IMG/VR virus record: IMGVR_UViG_3300030380_002211
Length of the DNA: 20,000 nucleotides
Strand: one strand, 5' to 3'
DNA from: an uncultured virus (IMG/VR IMGVR_UViG_3300030380_002211)
Lineage: Duplodnaviria > Heunggongvirae > Uroviricota > Caudoviricetes
Shown: one piece after another, positions 1,112 through 19,838 of the stretch
Numbering within the stretch: position 1 is the stretch's first letter
Layout of the letters: each line of letters opens with the position of its first letter
Notes under the pieces: generated by a model
The model's database searches: none
What the model was told of the DNA's origin: nothing
The model's input: the letters and a program-made list of their open reading frames with translations, nothing else
Program-made: the position numbers and the translations under genes

Positions 1112-3607
1112 TTATTCCTTGTTAAACCTTTTCTTATATTTATCTATTGTTCCACCTTCATTCTTGAATTTTTTCAAGTCCTTATAAGTTATTTTGTCAT
1201 TTGTCTTTCTAAAATTCTGAATTGGTTGGCCTGGAGTCATTTTCATTGTGTGTTGTGTATAGTCATCTGTGCCAATTTCATAACTTTCGTACTTAAATAC
1301 TTTACTTGTTGTACTAAAATTAGGTTTTCTCATGATAGTTTTATTTGTTACTTCAAACTCATTACCTTTCTTTCTGATAATAACAGGTAAATTTAAATTT
1401 GTTGACATATCTTTTAACACAGCTTCTATATCAGGATTATTTCTAATATTCGTTGCTTTATTTCTTTGTATTTTCTTAAAAAACTTTTGTAGTTCAGATA
1501 CTTTAATTGCTGGACTATTTCTAGTGTCGTTCATTCTATCTACAAAGTGTCTTGTAAACTCTATATCGACACCATACTTTTTGAGTATTCTATCTGCAAA
1601 TCTTTCTAAATCATTTATTTCTCTTTGTGATACACTTTCTTTCTGCATCTCTTTAGTTTTCTTTTTCATCTGTTCAATGTAAGCACGATAGATTGCAGCT
1701 TCTGCTTTCTTGCCCATTTCTTTTGCACGTTGTTCCATTGCAACAGCAGCTTGTATTTTGTGTGCATGAGTTTTGCCAGAGTTTTTAATCTTGGTTATAC
1801 TTGCCTTTGCAGTTGCAACATCTTTAAATCCAAGACCATGAATTGTACCTTTTGGGTTTTCATCTGTATATAAATCAGAATGTTTATCTGAACCTGCAGG
1901 TTGACCTTTCTTTCTAGGTATTCTTGGTGCTTCTTCTAATGATTTTAAATCATACAACCATGCCTTCTTAATAAGACCTTCTGTTTCATATGAAACATAA
2001 TTTGAACCTCGTCTTACAATTACACCCATTGAACCATCTACATGTTCAACTATATCACCAACATTAAATATATTTTCTTGATGATACTCTTCTCTTAAAA
2101 AGTTTGTAAAACTTTCTACATAACCTTCTCTTATACCCATGCCTTTTTTAACAGCATTAAATAATTCTTTTGTATCTCTGTCTGAAAGTCCAGTAACTCC
2201 TAATTTGAAGTTTCTGTAATCGTTGTTCTTTGCCATCTCTCTCATTTTAGAAGCTGACATTCCTGAAACACCTTCGGCATCTGGATCCCTTTCGCCTGAA
2301 GAAACTACTGTAACTTTTTTATAATTATAATCTCTACCATTGTATCTATCAGCAAGTGTTTGAAAATCTCGTATTCTATCACTACCTGCCACCATGATTA
2401 CTTCACCATACATTTTATCAAAAAATTTCAGTATCTCCATAAATGTTCTTTGTGTTCCACCAGCTGCTTTGATGTTATTTTGTGGGAACATCTTTTTTAG
2501 AAATTTAACTTTTGTATTTACATCTAATGGATTTTTTCGTTTGTCGGTTGAGGCACTAGCGTAAACAATGTGATTAGCGTTGTTCTTTCTAGCTTGTGCA
2601 ATCACCTCTTTCATCAGTTTAGCATGACCCGTAGTAGGAGGGTTAAACCTACCAAAAGCAAAAATTAATTTGGCGCTTTTATCCAATGCCTCTCCGACTG
2701 CCCTCGCTTCGCTTTGGGCATCATCAACACTTTTTAGTGAGTCTATCTCACTATCTGTTACTTTACCATCATCTAAAATCTTTTTACATTTTTTCAAGAA
2801 TGTAAGATAATGATATTTTTCTAACATTTTATAAACTACGTTTGCAGGTAATCTATTTTTAATACTATAAGTTTTAATTTCATCTGGTGTCATATCTGTA
2901 TCAAAAGCTGCTCTTCTTTCAAGGTCAACTTTGTTACCAATATCTGTTAAGTCTTGTATATCTTTTTCTATTTCACCTAGTTTATTACTAATTCTTTTTT
3001 CTAAGTCTTTAATCTCACCAGGTTTTAATTCTGTTAATTCATCATAGTCTATAATATCTCTTTTTAATTCACCCTTTAGCATATCTATTTTGTCAACTTG
3101 TTTTTGAAAGTCTTTTAGATATAAGTTAGGATTAAAATCAAATTCTTCTGGTCGTTTTACAAATGATTGACCTTTAATATCAAATACAGCATCTGCTTTT
3201 TCATTTTGTTCATCATAGGTTTTTTCGTCTGTAATAAAATAATAGTTTATAGGATGTTGAGTGCCAGGTATTAACTTACCTTGTATATTATCTGGATTAC
3301 TAGAAGCCAAATACTTTTTGGATAGTCTTAATCTTTCTTCTTCTTGTTTTTCTTCTGGCACATCAAACAAAACATTGATATCTAAATCAGCATCATTACG
3401 ATATCTTTTCGTAAGTATAGAACCTATCAAACTATACTTTAATATAGGATACTCTGATTCAAACTCTTTGAATTGTTCTGTAATTAATCTTATTACACTA
3501 TCTTTAATTTTAGGATTGCTTGTATCTTCGTCATCAAATACAGCAGGTGCATATGTACGTCTAGGTATATCAATGATTGATTCTTTAAATAGTCTAAAGC
3601 TTTTCAT
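1112..3607 (-). CDS. Multi-domain protein (831 aa): Pol-beta-type nucleotidyltransferase, helical region, HIGH-family cytidyltransferase-like domain, SH3/KOW-like domain and two further modules
   Basis: LIGS-x10-DLD (G62,S63,D74,D76) fits the Pol-beta NTase signature. FAFGRFNPPTTGH and MSASKMR are HxGH and KMSKS-like motifs. IFNVGDIVEH...KAWLYDL looks like a small beta-barrel. DLYTDENPKGTIHGLGFKD and FTRHFVDR modules lie downstream. Confidence 0.8.
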   Translation of the reverse strand: MKSFRLFKESIIDIPRRTYAPAVFDDEDTSNPKIKDSVIRLITEQFKEFESEYPILKYSLIGSILTKRYRNDADLDINVLFDVPEEKQEEERLRLSKKYLASSNPDNIQGKLIPGTQHPINYYFITDEKTYDEQNEKADAVFDIKGQSFVKRPEEFDFNPNLYLKDFQKQVDKIDMLKGELKRDIIDYDELTELKPGEIKDLEKRISNKLGEIEKDIQDLTDIGNKVDLERRAAFDTDMTPDEIKTYSIKNRLPANVVYKMLEKYHYLTFLKKCKKILDDGKVTDSEIDSLKSVDDAQSEARAVGEALDKSAKLIFAFGRFNPPTTGHAKLMKEVIAQARKNNANHIVYASASTDKRKNPLDVNTKVKFLKKMFPQNNIKAAGGTQRTFMEILKFFDKMYGEVIMVAGSDRIRDFQTLADRYNGRDYNYKKVTVVSSGERDPDAEGVSGMSASKMREMAKNNDYRNFKLGVTGLSDRDTKELFNAVKKGMGIREGYVESFTNFLREEYHQENIFNVGDIVEHVDGSMGVIVRRGSNYVSYETEGLIKKAWLYDLKSLEEAPRIPRKKGQPAGSDKHSDLYTDENPKGTIHGLGFKDVATAKASITKIKNSGKTHAHKIQAAVAMEQRAKEMGKKAEAAIYRAYIEQMKKKTKEMQKESVSQREINDLERFADRILKKYGVDIEFTRHFVDRMNDTRNSPAIKVSELQKFFKKIQRNKATNIRNNPDIEAVLKDMSTNLNLPVIIRKKGNEFEVTNKTIMRKPNFSTTSKVFKYESYEIGTDDYTQHTMKMTPGQPIQNFRKTNDKITYKDLKKFKNEGGTIDKYKKRFNKE

Positions 3608-4202
3608 TTTCTATATCCTTAATAATTTTGTTTGCAATATCTTTTGGTTCAGGACCTTCTGCCTTTATCTTTAAAAATGTTTTATTAACATCATTTGAAC
3701 TATCTTTTTCTAATTGTCTTAGAACTGGACCAGTTTCTTTTTCGTACACACCTATTCTATTTTTAATAATCTCTGGTTTATCATCTTTTCTACCACGAGC
3801 AGATAATCTTCTAATAACTTCTTTTTCTGATACATCTAAAAAGACAACATAATCATAGTTGACGTTCTCTTCTTTCATCTTGTTTAACTGTTCCATGTTT
3901 CTAGGAAAACCATCAAGTATATAACCTTTTTTTGTATCAGGTTTTTCTAGTCTATCTTTTAATGCTTTTATTACATATCTTAAAGGAACTAAATTACCAG
4001 CGTCCATTATCTTTGCAACTTCTGGATTTGTCTTTTGTAATTCTCTCATCATATCACCCATGTAGATATGAGGTATTTTAAAATGTTTATTTAAGAACTC
4101 TGAATAAGTTGATTTACCAGAACCAGGTCCACCAATCATTATGATACGAGTCATAGGCATATCAATCTCAATTGCTTCTAAAAATTGTTTTAGTGATTTC
4201 AT
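3594..4202 (-). CDS. adk: Adenylate kinase, short-LID type (about 202 aa)
   Basis: P-loop GGPGSGKST, GDMMR, GNLVP, GYILDGFPR and RLSARGRKDD. Start moved to ATG 4202 (MKSLKQFLEA), which overlaps the upstream stop (TAATG) and follows AAAGGA. Confidence 0.9.
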   Translation of the reverse strand: MKSLKQFLEAIEIDMPMTRIIMIGGPGSGKSTYSEFLNKHFKIPHIYMGDMMRELQKTNPEVAKIMDAGNLVPLRYVIKALKDRLEKPDTKKGYILDGFPRNMEQLNKMKEENVNYDYVVFLDVSEKEVIRRLSARGRKDDKPEIIKNRIGVYEKETGPVLRQLEKDSSNDVNKTFLKIKAEGPEPKDIANKIIKDIENEKL

Positions 4203-5434
4203 TATCCTTTTACCCAATCTTTGGCCATGTTAAAGTTTGCCTGACTAAATTCTAATCTATCAACTAACTTAACAGCACCACCTTTTTGTATTGCCACATA
4301 TCCTTCTGGATTTGTAACTTTGTATCCATTCTTTGTTCTTAGAAATGAACCAATACTTTGTATTGTATTTAATTTTTTTAGTAATACAGCCTTCGCTGTT
4401 TGAAATGTTATGTATGTTGCAATTGCAAAATATAGACCATCTCTATTTGGTCTTAATATTTTCATTCCTGCTTCTAGTATCTCTTCATACTTTTGTTTTG
4501 CCTTATCAGTTTTTTTACTATCAATTTCTTTTTTTAATCTGTTTCTAAAATATACTTCAAAATTATTTGCTAACTTTGATGTATTTGTAATCGCTGTACC
4601 TTGTCTTATGTAAGTATTAAAAAATGTTTTAAGTTGAACACCAAGAGATAAAGGACCAGTATCTTTTTTTAGTTTATCAATAAACGCACCTGCCTTATAA
4701 GCAGAACCCTCTGCCATTCTAATAACAGCATCAAATGATTTCTCTTCGTTAGAATTAAAAGCTGCAGTATCAGCTCTTTTGTAAGTTGCATCATCAAAGA
4801 ATACATTTTTATTCTTTTTTAAACTTCTGACGCTAGCGCCAAAAGATGCTTTTAGAGATGCCATTTTACTACCTGAGTATGATGTATGAAATATAATACC
4901 AAGTTGTGCCTTATCAATACTACTGTATAGAGAACTACCAAGTAATCCTGTTTTAACAACAGGCACAGCATATGTAATAGTGTTAGGTGTAAATACGATT
5001 GACTTTTGACCTGCGACTGTAGCAGTCTTTTTATCACCACTTGTAAATAGTAAGTCGCCTTGTAAGATTCCTGATATACCTAGAGATGGTAAAAGTTTTA
5101 AACAAATCTTTAATTTGTTCGCAAGTTCACCACTATGATTTCTACTAATATCAGCATTTGTATAGTTTATTTTAGGAGTAACATTAAATATAGATTTAGT
5201 GCCAACAAAGAACTTTTTGTTTTCTGGATTGATACCACAGAAGACTGCCGGCGCCCCGTCCCATTTTACTGAAACTGTGGATCCACCTGACCCTCCCTGT
5301 AACATTTGTTTGATAGACTTCAGAAATTCAATGGCTGTTTTAGCACCTTTGCTACCATTGTTAATTATTTCGTCTTCTAAATGCTCAAGATGTGTATTCT
5401 TATCTTCTACAAGATAATCTTGAAATTTCTGCAT
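4202..5434 (-). CDS. Conserved T4-like phage protein (410 aa) with ATP-dependent ligase / covalent nucleotidyltransferase motifs
   Basis: SVKWDGA (KxDG, K57), TKS, LQGDLLF, EGYVA and VKLV occur in the order of ligase motifs I, Ia, III, IV and V. GGAG RBS and promoters lie upstream. Confidence 0.7.
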   Translation of the reverse strand: MQKFQDYLVEDKNTHLEHLEDEIINNGSKGAKTAIEFLKSIKQMLQGGSGGSTVSVKWDGAPAVFCGINPENKKFFVGTKSIFNVTPKINYTNADISRNHSGELANKLKICLKLLPSLGISGILQGDLLFTSGDKKTATVAGQKSIVFTPNTITYAVPVVKTGLLGSSLYSSIDKAQLGIIFHTSYSGSKMASLKASFGASVRSLKKNKNVFFDDATYKRADTAAFNSNEEKSFDAVIRMAEGSAYKAGAFIDKLKKDTGPLSLGVQLKTFFNTYIRQGTAITNTSKLANNFEVYFRNRLKKEIDSKKTDKAKQKYEEILEAGMKILRPNRDGLYFAIATYITFQTAKAVLLKKLNTIQSIGSFLRTKNGYKVTNPEGYVAIQKGGAVKLVDRLEFSQANFNMAKDWVKG

Positions 5435-15252: not shown

Positions 15253-16635
15253 CTAGTCTAAACTATACTTAGTTGTAACCACATATTTTCTATCTGGATT
15301 TACCATAACATTTACTCTACTCATAAACTCTCGGTCAAATAGAATTGGCGTTCTATTTTCTCTATCATCTAAAGTAAATTCTGTTTCATATATAGTGCCT
15401 AAGAACTCGACATCTAGTTTAACAACATATCTAGTTTCATCATAGTTTCTTAAACCACCTACTGATATTTCTTCTTTGCGAATTATATCACTTGTAATTG
15501 TTTTATCACCTAATGTCCATGTAATCTTTTTATCTTTTACATTCATTTTGTCAGCATGAATAACTGACATGCCTGAATTACCAGTATCAAACTTTGCAAC
15601 AATTTCACCAAATGGTTTGATAGTTACAATCTCTTTGAATCCACATTCACTTGGTACTTTAACCCAATTATTTTTGTCAGCAAAGAATTCTATAATCTCT
15701 TTACTAATATTTTGACCACTTGCTTCTTCCATACCTTCAGTACCAGGAGATGAATTTACCTCGATAACAAATGGTGGTTCTTTTTCTCTATTCTTACTTG
15801 GTATAAAGTCAACAGCAGTCCATAATCCATTAACTGCTTTTGCAGCCTTTAAACTTTCTTCTATTTCTAATTCTGTTAGTTTTAATTTTTCTGGTTTAGA
15901 GCCTTGGGATACATTACTTCTAAAGTCGCCTTCAATTACTGGTCGCTTCATTGTCGCTAAAACTTTATTGCCTAATACTAATACTCTAACATCATAATCT
16001 GTTTTAATATATTCTTGTAAAAGTAAATCTGTATCTTCATCTTGTTTGTAAATTAATTGTACAATACTATCTAATGCTTTTTCTGATTCGATAAACAATA
16101 CACCAACACCTTTTGAGCCTCTTAAAGTTTTCATAATCACAGGCATTTGTGTATCTAGTTTATCAAATGCTAATGCTGATTTTTCTGGGTCATTTATAAG
16201 TGTAGTTTTAGGTTGTCTAATACCATAATCAGAAAGTCTTAATGCTGTTCTATACTTGTCTGTACATATACTAATACATTCTCTACTATTGATTACACAA
16301 ATACTATGTTTTTCTAATGATGATACGATATCCATCCAACTGTCTCTTCTGACAACTGAACCTCTAATAATAGTTATTGTATCAGCACTTGAAACTGCAA
16401 AACCTTTTTCGTCATCTTTATTATGTAATCTAAAAATGCCATCTTCGTATGTAGAATAACCACCAGTTAATTTATACAGATAATGTTTCCAACCTAACTT
16501 TTCTGCCTCTTCTTTTAACCTATCAGCAGTATGAAAAGTTTTTGCCTTTTCAGGCTCATCTGTAATTATAACTAATTTATATTTCTGCTCGCCATTGGCT
16601 TCAGATATAAATTCTCTAAACTTCGGTGCCTTCAT
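15253..16635 (-). CDS. RimK-family ATP-grasp ligase fused to a C-terminal retropepsin-like (RimB-like) protease (460 aa)
   Basis: ATP-grasp motifs DKY, PVIMKTLRGSKGVGV, LLQEYI, DVRVLV, FRSNVSQG and VIEVNSSPG. C-terminal region of about 130 aa has AKFDTGNS and FTLDDR...ILFDREFM. Confidence 0.85.
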   Translation of the reverse strand: MKAPKFREFISEANGEQKYKLVIITDEPEKAKTFHTADRLKEEAEKLGWKHYLYKLTGGYSTYEDGIFRLHNKDDEKGFAVSSADTITIIRGSVVRRDSWMDIVSSLEKHSICVINSRECISICTDKYRTALRLSDYGIRQPKTTLINDPEKSALAFDKLDTQMPVIMKTLRGSKGVGVLFIESEKALDSIVQLIYKQDEDTDLLLQEYIKTDYDVRVLVLGNKVLATMKRPVIEGDFRSNVSQGSKPEKLKLTELEIEESLKAAKAVNGLWTAVDFIPSKNREKEPPFVIEVNSSPGTEGMEEASGQNISKEIIEFFADKNNWVKVPSECGFKEIVTIKPFGEIVAKFDTGNSGMSVIHADKMNVKDKKITWTLGDKTITSDIIRKEEISVGGLRNYDETRYVVKLDVEFLGTIYETEFTLDDRENRTPILFDREFMSRVNVMVNPDRKYVVTTKYSLD

Positions 16636-18397: not shown

Positions 18398-19072
18398 TTA
18401 CTTAGTAATTGTGCTATCTGGTTCAAGAGCAATCCAGTATTCAATAGGTAGTTTTTTGTTTTTAAAATGAGATATAGACTTTGAAGATACTGAAACATCA
18501 TAATCACCAGATAACATTTTCAGATTCTCTACTTTAAAATAGAAAGTATAATCTGCTGTAGCACCTTCGCCCACAACAATATCAAAGTTGTTAGATGTAT
18601 CGTTCTTTTTATCACACACTTTTAATACAATATCACCACCTTTTGTTCCTACTAATGCAAGGTCAGGTGTCTTCAGAATTGCAGCCATCTTTTTTAGTTC
18701 TGTAAGATGTGATTCTGATAAACTAAAAGTAACATCTGCCTCTGGCATGTTTACTTCTTTAGTTGGTGATACTAAAACTGATGGGTCTGAATAAAAGTAT
18801 TTTGCTTTTGACTTACTACCTTCAGCAGAGATAGTCATAAACTTATCTTGCAAAGATAATTCAGGTTTGTTTAGTCCAGACATTACTGCAAGAAACTCAT
18901 TAAGGTCATAGATGCCAAACTCAGTATCAAATGACTCGTCAATATCTGCCTTAGCAAATATGTTTCTCATAGTAGAAATTGTGTTTAATTGTTTTCCTGG
19001 TTTGATTAATATGTTAGTATTAATCTCAGAAAAGTTTTTTAGGATGTTTTGGGTGTTTTGATTTAGTTTCAT
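18398..19072 (-). CDS. 45: Sliding clamp, gp45 homolog (about 224 aa)
   Basis: ILKNFSEIN, FGIYDLNEFL, FKVENLKM and YWIALEPDS. Start moved to ATG 19072 because ATG 19105 lies only 2 nt below the -10 box, upstream of the expected transcription start. Confidence 0.94.
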   Translation of the reverse strand: MKLNQNTQNILKNFSEINTNILIKPGKQLNTISTMRNIFAKADIDESFDTEFGIYDLNEFLAVMSGLNKPELSLQDKFMTISAEGSKSKAKYFYSDPSVLVSPTKEVNMPEADVTFSLSESHLTELKKMAAILKTPDLALVGTKGGDIVLKVCDKKNDTSNNFDIVVGEGATADYTFYFKVENLKMLSGDYDVSVSSKSISHFKNKKLPIEYWIALEPDSTITK

Positions 19073-19107
19073 AATATTAATATATACCTTCTCGTTTAGT
19101 TTCATTT

Positions 19108-19136
19108 ATTATATCAAAGATAAAGAGACCTGTCAA
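19108..19136 (-). promoter_or_regulatory. Perfect sigma70 promoter TTGACA-N17-TATAAT upstream of gp45
   Basis: Minus strand reads TTGACA GGTCTCTTTATCTTTGA TATAAT. Confidence 0.88.
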
Positions 19137-19146
19137 GCAGGTCTCT
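19115..19146 (-). terminator. Probable intrinsic terminator after pqqA
   Basis: 9-bp stem AGAGACCTG / CAGGTCTCT (19146-19138 with 19132-19124), 5-nt loop, followed by TTATCTTT on the minus strand. Confidence 0.7.
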
Positions 19147-19164
19147 CTAAAATAAAACAAATAA

Positions 19165-19236
19165 TTATTTGTTCATTACATACATTGTTACTTCAAAACC
19201 GAAACGCATTTCAGTCGCTTGAGGTTTAGTCCACAT
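19165..19236 (-). CDS. pqqA: Pyrroloquinoline quinone precursor peptide PqqA (23 aa)
   Basis: Hand translation gives MWTKPQATEMRFGFEVTMYVMNK*, with the W-x-K-P leader and GFEVTMY (E-x3-Y) core. AGGAGA RBS lies 6 nt upstream and a terminator lies downstream. Confidence 0.95.
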   Translation of the reverse strand: MWTKPQATEMRFGFEVTMYVMNK

Positions 19237-19328
19237 AGTATTTCTCCTGTCGTTTATGGTTAATAAAATTAATCACAAACCAGTTCGTTGAAGATGTATT
19301 GCTACAAGGTTCAACTTGAGATTTATTA

Positions 19329-19766
19329 TTACTTGATGTCAATAGTTCGAGGTTTCTTTTCCTCTGGTACAACCTTTTCTAACTCGACTAAAAGCATTCC
19401 GTCTTTTAATTTAGCACCATTTACAACTACATCATCTGCTAATGTAAATGTTCTACTAAATTTTCTTTTCGAAATACCTCTATGAATTGTTTCCTTTTCG
19501 TCTTTATCATCATTCTCAACTGACTTAATTGTCAATTGATTAAGAGCAGATTGAACTTCAATATCTTTTTTATTAAAACCAGCAAGTGCCATTTCAATCT
19601 GAAAATTGAAATCATCTACTTTATTAATGTTGTAAGGTGGATATGATGTCGGTTGTTTAACTGTGTACTCTAATGTATTATTAAAGTGGTCAAATAGGTC
19701 ATCAAATCCTACTGAAAATGGACGCAAATCGTTCCATATATTACTTGGTATAGATAGTCTTGTCAT
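19329..19766 (-). CDS. hsp20: Small heat shock protein Hsp20 (IbpA-like, about 145 aa)
   Basis: SVGFDDLF, YPPYNI, IEMALAGF, HRGISKRKFSRTFTL, LKDGML and VPEEKKPRTI. Start moved to ATG 19766 behind AGGAGA. Confidence 0.95.
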   Translation of the reverse strand: MTRLSIPSNIWNDLRPFSVGFDDLFDHFNNTLEYTVKQPTSYPPYNINKVDDFNFQIEMALAGFNKKDIEVQSALNQLTIKSVENDDKDEKETIHRGISKRKFSRTFTLADDVVVNGAKLKDGMLLVELEKVVPEEKKPRTIDIK

Positions 19767-19830
19767 ATTTTTTCTCCTTTTATTAAGCAAGTTTATCATA
19801 ACGATACCTCTTAATTGAGCGTATCATAAT

Positions 19831-19838
19831 TATTTATA
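19831..19838 (-). promoter_or_regulatory. T4 late promoter consensus TATAAATA upstream of hsp20
   Basis: Exact match in an intergenic region about 65 nt above the hsp20 start. The AT-rich background lowers specificity. Confidence 0.65.

What the first reader, a model, noticed from the sequence alone, without database searches (positions are those of the whole stretch)
19165..19248. Phage-encoded PQQ precursor peptide (pqqA) hidden between hsp20 and gp45
Seen: a 72-nt ORF, MWTKPQATEMRFGFEVTMYVMNK, with strong RBS and terminator, too short for the ORF track; no pqqB-E in the window. Established: the Glu and Tyr of PqqA E-x3-Y are cross-linked by PqqE/PqqD and excised, giving one PQQ per peptide; PQQ is the cofactor of methanol dehydrogenases (XoxF/MxaF). 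From memory the sequence is very close to Methylophilaceae PqqA. Inference: a minimal auxiliary metabolic gene supplying the stoichiometric substrate to host Pqq enzymes to sustain methanol oxidation late in infection, implying an OM43/Methylopumilus-like host. Viral pqqA may have been noted in metagenomes before, so novelty needs a literature check.
Basis: partly seen in the sequence, partly recalled or inferred. Interest (0 to 1): 0.9.

Follow-up and report, generated by a model that had tools for sequence, protein, structure and literature searches.

The report
Phage-borne PQQ precursor gene pqqA
A marine T4-like phage carries an intact 23-codon copy of pqqA, the small peptide that methanol-eating bacteria use up to make the cofactor PQQ; it was copied from an OM43-type host, but such viral copies were already reported in 2020.

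Summary
Window 19165-19236 (- strand) is a 23-codon ORF that passes both curated PqqA models at about twice their cut-offs. It has an AGGAG ribosome-binding site and lies between hsp20 and the gp45 clamp of a T4-like replication module.

Added here:
- The gene is a ~170-nt cassette (structured leader plus ORF). It sits between the hsp20 stop codon and a terminator/promoter element that relatives without pqqA also have.
- Only 10 of 71 judgeable close relatives in IMG/VR carry it.
- A sister phage contig matches a chromosomal pqqA locus of a 1.2-Mb Methylophilales genome at 98/98 leader bases and 69/72 ORF bases. The flanks are unrelated.
- All runs holding the stretch are marine. The host is therefore an OM43-type methylotroph.

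Solo pqqA is also in every Methylophilales phage record my searches returned and in at least 120 IMG/VR contigs. All are intact and under purifying selection.

The function, supplying the precursor to host PqqBCDE, is inferred and was not tested. Viral pqqA is in print (Coutinho 2020, PMC7678222). This scan has also found phage pqqA on other genomes several times. Verdict: a new member of a known kind, of moderate interest.

The parts
19165..19236 (-). pqqA ORF, 23 codons plus stop; the Glu15-x3-Tyr19 cross-link pair is present
19244..19248 (-). ribosome-binding site AGGAG, 7 nt before the ATG
   Evidence: read from the sequence; conserved in sister phage and host copies
19237..19325 (-). captured host leader. 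It is homologous to the sequence upstream of the first copy of a tandem chromosomal pqqA pair in four 1.2-Mb Methylophilales genomes. Homology starts at AAATCTCAAG.
19287..19315 (-). leader hairpin 1: constant outer stem GTTGAA/TTCAAC, and an apical stem whose sequence varies while pairing is kept
19252..19280 (-). leader hairpin 2, just upstream of the ribosome-binding site (core coordinates, approximate)
19121..19149 (-). terminator hairpin shared by hsp20 and pqqA. It is older than the pqqA insertion, because relatives without pqqA have the same element.
19108..19136 (-). sigma-70-like promoter for gp45 (TTGACA, 17 nt, TATAAT, with TG). Its -35 box lies in the terminator loop.
19329..19799 (-). 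hsp20. The likely true start is the ATG at 19766, behind AAGGAG. pqqA lies in its 3' untranslated region.
18398..19105 (-). gp45 sliding clamp. The likely true start is the ATG at 19072, downstream of the promoter.
19831..19838 (-). TATAAATA, a T4 late-promoter-like motif 72 nt upstream of the hsp20 start; conserved in the sister contig
   Evidence: motif match only

Best explanation
This is a genuine, selected, phage-borne pqqA.

Origin and layout. A T4-like marine myophage picked up a ~170-nt cassette from the chromosome of an OM43-type Methylophilales host. The cassette is a two-hairpin leader, a ribosome-binding site and the 23-codon ORF. It sits in the 3' untranslated region of hsp20, upstream of the existing hsp20 terminator. 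It is therefore transcribed with hsp20 and ends at that terminator.

Proposed mechanism (inferred). In the infected cell the peptide is bound by host PqqD. Host PqqE cross-links Glu15 to Tyr19. Host PqqF/G, PqqB and PqqC then trim and mature it into one PQQ per peptide. PqqA is consumed one-for-one and these hosts keep 3-12 gene copies of it. The phage copy would keep PQQ supply, and so XoxF-type methanol oxidation, going while host transcription fails.

Shown: identity, intactness, purifying selection, host origin, insertion anatomy, and presence of the hsp20-pqqA stretch in an RNA library.
Inferred: translation, processing to PQQ, and benefit to the phage.
For: (1) Family membership. PF08042 scores 43.6 against a cut-off of 21.1 bits and TIGR02107 scores 39.3 against 20 bits. 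The columns invariant across eight copies include Glu15 and Tyr19.

(2) Recurrence in phages.
- tblastn against 50,697 phage records hit 12 records. Nine are Methylophilales or Methylophilaceae phages (Venkman, MEP301, P19250A, MEP401, MEP402, four Melnitz). One is a freshwater uncultured phage. Two are mislabelled bacterial pqqABCDE DNA.
All 120 hold an intact 23-25-codon ORF. None of the 120 has pqqB-E within the flank held: 80 loci with up to 3 kb, 40 with about 300 nt.

(3) Selection. Across seven phage copies the pooled pN/pS is 0.16. Window against the others gives pS 0.61-0.86 and pN 0.05-0.13.

(4) Host machinery. Five of five Methylophilaceae genomes tested have 3-6 pqqA hits, one pqqE and one pqqC. 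Four of the five have a PQQ alcohol dehydrogenase over the cut-off. Beck et al. 2014 report 3-12 pqqA copies against single pqqBCDEFG (PMC4109929, passages read).

(5) Host origin.
- The window ORF is 70/72 nt identical to a chromosomal copy in L130.
- Sister phage L214 against L130 is 98/98 in the leader and 69/72 in the ORF. The flanks are at random level, 11/30 and 11/25.
- L130 lies among housekeeping genes (SHMT, NrdR, phosphoglucomutase).

(6) Anatomy. Eight of eight inspected relatives without pqqA have the same terminator with CTTGAC in its loop directly after hsp20.

(7) RNA. In a metatranscriptome run, a 218-nt contig with one mismatch spans 19163-19373, that is pqqA, the leader and the hsp20 3' end. 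Its depth is 13.3, against 7.7-14.8 for hsp20 contigs of the same run (records 11-15).
Against: - No experiment shows that the peptide is made or converted to PQQ.
- Only 10 of 71 judgeable close relatives (gp45 79-100% identical) carry the cassette. It is dispensable for this phage lineage and may be recent.
- PQQ is a cofactor, not a consumable. The need for new synthesis during one infection cycle is an assumption.
- The RNA evidence comes from assembled contigs. These cannot give level, strand or ends, and DNA carry-over in the library cannot be excluded.
- The very high RNA depth over the ORF (1649 in X17) cannot be assigned to the phage. One such contig carries a different C-terminal tail, and another has a leader type that is identical in host and phage. 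It is probably host mRNA.
- No sigma-70 consensus promoter was found in the leader, and timing is unknown.
Confidence: 0.72

Rival explanations
1. Recent, neutral passenger. The cassette is a piece of host DNA caught in a variable junction of the phage genome, and it has no selected role there.
For: Only 10 of 71 judgeable close relatives have it. The hsp20|gp45 junction holds nothing, the pqqA cassette, or inserts of about 1.2 kb in different relatives. The 98/98 leader identity with a host genome implies a recent exchange.
Against: The same solo gene sits at different places in unrelated phage types: siphovirus-like Venkman and P19250A, MEP301, the Zobellviridae phage MEP402, the myovirus Melnitz, and this lineage. 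All 120 IMG/VR copies are intact. Pooled pN/pS is 0.16. Within this lineage all 11 copies are intact while differing at synonymous sites.
Confidence: 0.12
2. The selected feature is the nucleic acid, not the peptide. The stretch would act as a homology patch for recombination with the host chromosome, or the structured leader RNA would act on its own, for example by titrating a host regulator of pqqA.
For: Phage leader variants are interleaved with host variants. L214 is identical to host L130 (98/98), and L211 is closest to host L205 (93/101), closer than to any other phage variant. This suggests repeated phage-host exchange. The leader keeps two hairpins in 10 of 10 sequences, with 7 different apical stems.
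Against: Purifying selection acts on the amino-acid sequence. Other phage groups carry pqqA with unrelated leaders: the leader motif is in 0 of 5 GenBank phage copies and in only 1 of 111 other IMG/VR copies, and that one belongs to this same lineage. What is shared across phages is the ORF.
Confidence: 0.08
3. Decoy or inhibitor. The phage peptide occupies PqqD/PqqE unproductively in order to shut down host PQQ synthesis.
For: None directly. It remains possible only because processing was not tested.
Against: The ORF is 70/72 nt identical to a host chromosomal copy. It keeps every invariant column, including Glu15 and Tyr19. Nothing distinguishes it from a normal substrate.
Confidence: 0.03
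4. Assembly chimera or host contamination of a viral contig.
For: pqqA is a host-type gene, and it is 97% identical at the DNA level to a bacterial locus.
Against: Ten IMG/VR contigs share the same hsp20-pqqA-gp45 junctions. A sister contig is 93% identical over 2.4 kb with the same order. A virome contig from another study bridges 19053-19533 with one mismatch. Phage genes lie on both sides, and homology to the host stops sharply at the cassette ends.
Confidence: 0.01

Closest known systems
Virus-encoded PqqA of Lake Baikal methylotroph phages (population VP_266; Coutinho et al. 2020, Microbiome 8:163, PMC7678222; passages read)
   Same: A stand-alone PqqA precursor gene on a virus predicted to infect Methylophilaceae. 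It was interpreted as an auxiliary metabolic gene that supports methanol dehydrogenase.
   Different: That virus is from fresh water and was described beside a viral methanol dehydrogenase. Here the phage is a marine lineage, with no other methylotrophy gene in the 20 kb seen. I could not compare the sequences, because the Baikal contigs are not in the tools.
Unannotated solo pqqA of cultured Methylophilales phages (Venkman, MEP301, P19250A, MEP401/402, Melnitz)
   Same: A 23-24-codon ORF, 77-96% identical in peptide, with its own ribosome-binding site and no pqqB-E.
   Different: The genomic positions and leaders differ. In Melnitz, also T4-like, the gene sits by tRNA-Leu upstream of the baseplate hub. 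The leader motif of this lineage is absent from all 5 GenBank copies tested. The four isolate papers held do not mention the gene (find on the full text). The P19250A paper is not in the library.
Orphan chromosomal pqqA copies of Methylophilaceae, in particular the first copy of a tandem pair in 1.2-Mb Methylophilales genomes (L129, L130, L180, L205)
   Same: Leader, ribosome-binding site and ORF are homologous. The window ORF is 70/72 identical to L130, and the sister phage leader is 98/98. The copies are orphans: only 11 of 79 bacterial loci have pqqB next to pqqA.
   Different: The host locus is a two-gene unit with one visible terminator-like hairpin plus T-run, lying after the second copy (read from the sequence; the terminator scan, called no site there). 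The phage took only the first copy and uses the phage hsp20 terminator.
Cyanophage psbA (D1 protein), recalled from the literature and not searched here
   Same: Host-phage allele exchange has been reported for psbA, as recalled.
   Different: psbA encodes a full membrane protein with experimental evidence of expression during infection. pqqA encodes a 23-residue peptide that is destroyed to make a cofactor, and no such evidence exists for it.

Membership tests
PqqA (PF08042 / TIGR02107) | Score above the curated cut-off of the family model over its full length | tested here: met
   PF08042: 43.6 bits against 21.1, profile 1-19/19. TIGR02107 equivalog: 39.3 bits against 20, profile 1-21/21.
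PqqA (PF08042 / TIGR02107) | Conserved Glu-x3-Tyr pair that is cross-linked to form PQQ | tested here: met
   E15-V-T-M-Y19. Both residues are invariant in the 8-sequence alignment. The role of the pair is established knowledge, also cited in PMC7678222 references 50-51.
PqqA (PF08042 / TIGR02107) | Short stand-alone peptide gene with its own translation signals | tested here: met
   23 codons, with AGGAG 7 nt upstream.
PqqA (PF08042 / TIGR02107) | Lies beside pqqBCDE | tested here: not met
   No pqqB-E family match among the 21 window ORFs scanned. This is not disqualifying. Only 11 of 79 Methylophilaceae loci have pqqB next to pqqA, and orphan copies are the published norm (PMC4109929).
PqqA (PF08042 / TIGR02107) | Peptide is bound by PqqD, cross-linked by PqqE and converted to PQQ | not testable with these tools
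   At 23 residues the peptide is below the chain length that complex prediction accepts. This needs biochemistry.
Viral auxiliary metabolic gene | Host-type metabolic gene inside a bona fide viral genome, with viral genes on both sides | tested here: met
   The gene is flanked by hsp20 and gp45/gp44/gp62/regA/gp43. The same junctions occur in 10 IMG/VR contigs.
Viral auxiliary metabolic gene | Kept by selection in viruses | tested here: met
   120 of 120 IMG/VR copies are intact. Pooled pN/pS is 0.16 among 7 phage copies. Caveat: these copies were found by similarity searches, which favours conserved ones.
Viral auxiliary metabolic gene | Expressed during infection | tested here: inconclusive
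   One RNA-library contig spans pqqA plus the hsp20 3' end with one mismatch (record 11). Contigs cannot show level or strand, and DNA carry-over is not excluded.

The most novel reading that the evidence does not exclude
The pqqA cassette would not be a one-off capture. It would be exchanged again and again by homologous recombination between OM43-type chromosomes and the T4-like phages that infect them. Phage leader alleles would then track the alleles of their current hosts and give a strain-level record of who infects whom. Its conserved two-hairpin leader, absent from Rfam, would be an undescribed cis-acting RNA element that sets the stability or translation of the pqqA message, and so PQQ supply, in streamlined marine methylotrophs.
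Probability: 0.3. Interest if true: 0.6.

Novelty: new member of a known kind. Interest (0 to 1): 0.4.

Why it matters
OM43-type methylotrophs oxidise methanol released by phytoplankton and are a sizeable carbon sink in coastal seas.

- A phage gene that feeds their cofactor pathway suggests that PQQ supply limits energy metabolism during infection.
- It is an unusual auxiliary gene, because it encodes a consumable substrate peptide and not an enzyme.
- Practically, the 72-nt gene is a cheap host marker for uncultured viral contigs. Here it assigns a T4-like lineage to a host group. Many IMG/VR contigs belong to that lineage (165 gp45 relatives), and its DNA polymerase is at most 54% identical to that of any phage in the GenBank collection.
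- The gene is left out, or overwritten by an opposite-strand 'hypothetical' CDS, in all 10 GenBank phage records that hold a solo copy (feature column; six of them looked at in detail). A likely reason is that it is shorter than the minimum gene length of common gene callers. That reason is recalled and was not tested.
- The host-identical leader gives a direct, testable phage-host link.

Tried and rejected
- The window's own assembly is not held. The nearest record, G001, does not cover this region, so the rest of the phage genome could not be checked for other pqq or xoxF genes.
- Rfam and tRNA. At gathering thresholds the window has no Rfam match and no tRNA. In E-value mode, the pqqA region of the window and of host L130 gave only weak terminator-like hits far below the cut-offs.
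- Promoters. No sigma-70 consensus promoter was found in the leader of the phage or of the host locus. Where the pqqA transcript starts stays open.
- Clustering the 80 long IMG/VR loci by shared flanking proteins, to count independent acquisitions, failed. Single linkage merged 79 sequences into one component, so I make no count of acquisitions.
- RNA depth. I first read the peak over the ORF in two RNA runs (1649 and 74.6, against flanks of 37 or less) as strong phage expression. I withdrew that reading. The depths sum all contigs at least 90% alike. One contig has a different C-terminal tail. The main one has a leader type that is identical in host and phage.
- Joints in DNA runs that skip 19082-19327 (table 5) fit the relatives without pqqA seen in IMG/VR. 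Their sides are short (21-43 nt), so I use them only as a weak hint.
- RNAalifold on the MAFFT alignment recovered the outer stem and hairpin 2 but not the variable apical stem. That stem rests on single-sequence folds and shuffles.
- Complex prediction was not used, because the peptide is shorter than the 30 residues it needs.
- An att-site or integration role was considered and dropped. The whole ORF with start codon and ribosome-binding site is kept in lytic T4-like phages, and copies differ mostly at synonymous sites.

Full report
**1. The observation**

AGGAG lies 7 nt before the ATG.

The peptide scores 43.6 bits against Pfam PqqA (cut-off 21.1, E 2.7e-11, full profile). It scores 39.3 bits against the NCBIfam equivalog TIGR02107 (cut-off 20). 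The cross-link residues Glu15 and Tyr19 are present, and they are invariant in an alignment with seven other copies.

Downstream lies a 12-bp hairpin followed by a T-rich tail at 19149-19121.

The neighbours are hsp20 and the gp45 clamp. The window as a whole is a T4-like replication module on one strand: gp43, uvsX, gp41, regA, gp62, gp44, gp45. None of the 21 ORFs I scanned matches a pqqB-E or methanol-dehydrogenase family; the other ORFs of 60 aa or more, mostly + strand frames overlapping the gene row, were not scanned. G+C is 30-33%.

The DNA polymerase is at most 53.8% identical to that of any phage in the GenBank collection. This is an uncultured lineage.

**2. It is not an artefact**

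The window's own assembly is not held. Three results support the arrangement:
- An IMG/VR contig (G002) is 93% identical over 2.4 kb and has the same gene order.
- Ten IMG/VR contigs carry hsp20-pqqA-gp45.
- A 481-nt contig from a virome run of another study spans 19053-19533 with one mismatch (record 30).

**3. How the gene sits in the phage**

A search with gp45 found 165 relatives in IMG/VR, and the best 80 (79-100% identical) were kept. Nine of the 80 have too little upstream sequence to judge. Of the other 71:
- 10 carry pqqA. All ten have gp45 at least 97% identical.
- 61 do not carry it.
- 24 loci have hsp20 ending 61-101 nt before gp45 with nothing between (23 of the 61, plus L264, whose 241 nt upstream are too few to count as judgeable but reach the end of hsp20).
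- Others have roughly 0.6-1.7 kb there, most about 1.2 kb.

In eight of eight inspected spacers without pqqA, the hsp20 stop is followed by a hairpin. Its stem differs from phage to phage, but its loop always reads CTTGAC. A TATAAT-like box and the gp45 ribosome-binding site follow. The window has the same element: a perfect TTGACA-17-TATAAT with its -35 box in the terminator loop.

The terminator-promoter element is therefore older than pqqA. The cassette was inserted between the hsp20 stop and that terminator, so pqqA lies in the hsp20 transcription unit. DNA-run contigs that skip 19082-19327 fit the variants without pqqA, but their sides are short.

**4. Where the cassette came from**

The best 79 bacterial loci from a scan of 185,579 species genomes break down as follows, by my count of the titles:
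- 67 are named as Methylophilaceae genera, or as the family or order.
- 10 carry only higher-rank labels.
- 2 belong to one MAG labelled Acidovorax caeni.

At the DNA level the window ORF is 70/72 identical to a copy in L130 and 67/72 to one in L180. The similarity runs upstream through a ~98-nt leader and stops sharply:
- Sister phage L214 against L130 is 98/98 in the leader and 69/72 in the ORF.
- The flanks are 11/30 before and 11/25 after.

L130 lies among housekeeping genes. There the leader precedes the first of two tandem pqqA copies, and a terminator-like hairpin with a T-run follows the second copy (read from the sequence; the scan called no terminator).

The leader motif occurs in 4 of 82 bacterial copies, namely L129, L130, L180 and L205, each from a 1.2-Mb genome. 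It occurs in 11 of 11 copies of this phage lineage. It occurs in 1 of 111 other IMG/VR copies, and that one is on the same contig as L214. It occurs in 0 of 5 GenBank phage copies.

All 20 rows of runs holding the stretch, from 12 studies, are labelled marine, seawater or viral metagenome, apart from one coded organism. The host is therefore a streamlined marine Methylophilales of OM43 type. The tools give no genus for these genomes.

**5. Leader structure and exchange**

All 10 leaders (6 phage, 4 host) fold into the same two hairpins. The first has a constant outer stem and an apical stem that comes in 7 different sequences. Each of those folds better than shuffles of its variable part, with 2 to 79 of 1000 shuffles doing as well. 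RNAalifold recovers the outer stem and hairpin 2. Rfam has no such family.

Phage and host leader alleles are interleaved. L214 equals host L130. L211 is closest to host L205 (93/101), closer than to any other phage allele. All phage copies share one insertion site, so one insertion followed by repeated recombination with host alleles is the simplest reading. With four host genomes this is a lead and not a result.

**6. Other phages**

A tblastn search of 50,697 phage records returned 12 records:
- Nine are Methylophilales or Methylophilaceae phages.
- One is a freshwater uncultured phage.
- Two are contigs labelled Acinetobacter phage that are bacterial pqqABCDE DNA.

In the six records inspected, the gene is unannotated or overlaid by an opposite-strand 'hypothetical' CDS. 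It sits at different places in each.

An IMG/VR pattern scan stopped at 120 loci. All 120 hold intact ORFs, none has pqqB-E within the flank held, and ten have T4-like neighbours. Seven phage copies give a pooled pN/pS of 0.16. These copies were found by similarity, and the pattern fixes 11 residues, so this is a biased sample.

**7. Mechanism**

Five of five Methylophilaceae genomes tested have 3-6 pqqA hits but one pqqE and one pqqC. Four of the five have a PQQ alcohol dehydrogenase over the cut-off. Beck et al. 2014 report 3-12 pqqA copies against single pqqBCDEFG (PMC4109929, passages read). It is established that PqqA is consumed one per PQQ.

I infer that the phage copy keeps precursor supply going while host expression fails. 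Neither processing of the peptide nor a benefit to the phage has been shown.

RNA evidence is limited. One contig of a metatranscriptome run spans pqqA, the leader and the hsp20 3' end with one mismatch, at a depth like that of hsp20. The much higher summed depth over the ORF in RNA runs is probably host pqqA message.

Timing is open. A TATAAATA motif lies upstream of hsp20. It is one of three on the coding strand, all intergenic, but 4.6 are expected from base composition alone.

**8. What is already known**

Coutinho et al. 2020 reported PqqA on a Lake Baikal virus of methylotrophs and proposed the same role (PMC7678222, passages read). A 2026 reservoir study lists viral pqqA, pqqD and pqqE (PMC13188868, passages read).

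Full-text searches for pqqA with phage, viral or OM43 terms found no other report. The Venkman, MEP301, Melnitz and MEP401/402 papers do not mention the gene. The P19250A paper is not held, and no supplements were read.

Earlier notes of this scan describe the same gene on other phage genomes.

What I add is the insertion anatomy, the patchy presence within the lineage, the host-identical structured leader, and the marine host assignment.

**9. Verdict**

The gene is real and conserved, it came from the host, and it most likely acts as a substrate-supply auxiliary gene. It is a new member of a known kind, of moderate interest.

Noticed in passing
window 19108-19149 (-); L219, L222, L236, L239, L244, L246, L247, L248 (spacers printed): The hsp20|gp45 spacer of this phage group holds a combined element: a terminator hairpin whose loop is the -35 box (CTTGAC) of the gp45 promoter. 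The stems differ between phages but stay paired, while the loop is constant in 9 of 9 sequences.
   Followed up: partly
L208-L287: The hsp20|gp45 junction is a variable site. Close relatives have no insert (24 loci), the ~0.27-kb pqqA cassette (10 loci), or other inserts, most about 1.2 kb. What those other inserts encode was not examined.
   Followed up: partly
L130 5001-5310; also L180, L205, L129: Streamlined 1.2-Mb Methylophilales genomes carry a tandem pair of pqqA genes about 110 nt apart. A structured leader precedes the first copy only, and the only terminator-like hairpin with a T-run that I saw follows the second (read; the scan called none).
   Followed up: partly
hsp20 3' end in L219/L222/L236 and pqqA 3' end in L130 5066-5079: The last codons and stop of hsp20 in relatives without pqqA, and of the host pqqA, share the string CAAGTAATTG (13 of 14 bases with the next four). 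This could have been the crossover point of the capture. It was seen after the fact and not tested against chance.
   Followed up: no
run X17, window 19082-19349 (tables 2, 4, 7): RNA-library contigs of pqqA type reach summed depths of 478-1649, where flanking phage genes reach 37 or less. One contig has a different C-terminal tail, and the main one a leader type shared by host and phage. This is probably very abundant host pqqA message in situ.
   Followed up: partly
MZ577097.1 76100-76195 (L001) and MW202481.1 2067-2195 (L006): In these GenBank records an opposite-strand 'hypothetical protein' CDS is annotated over pqqA. In Venkman, MEP301, P19250A and MEP402 the gene lies in an unannotated gap.
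   Followed up: yes
CAKLQF020000010.1 104210-112263 (L007): A record labelled Acinetobacter phage MD-2021a holds a bacterial pqqABCDE operon next to ppk and a 5'-nucleotidase. It looks like chromosomal DNA filed as phage.
   Followed up: partly
window 15253-16635 (-): A 460-aa ORF between gp43 and regA combines a RimK-like ATP-grasp domain (135.6 bits) with a putative zinc-protease domain (35.5 bits).
   Followed up: no
window 1112-5434 (-): A run of accessory genes: an 831-aa protein with cytidylyltransferase-like and nucleotidyltransferase domains, an adenylate kinase (123.8 bits) and a DUF6267 protein (407.6 bits).
   Followed up: no
window 19072 and 19766 (-): The longest ORFs of gp45 and hsp20 start 33 nt upstream of the likely true ATGs. 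For gp45 the longer start would lie within about 5 nt of the -10 box. Relatives align from the downstream ATG.
   Followed up: partly
window 19838, 6758, 5488 (-): TATAAATA (T4 late-promoter-like) occurs three times on the coding strand, each 13-72 nt upstream of a gene start, and never on the other strand. Base composition alone predicts 4.6 per strand.
   Followed up: partly
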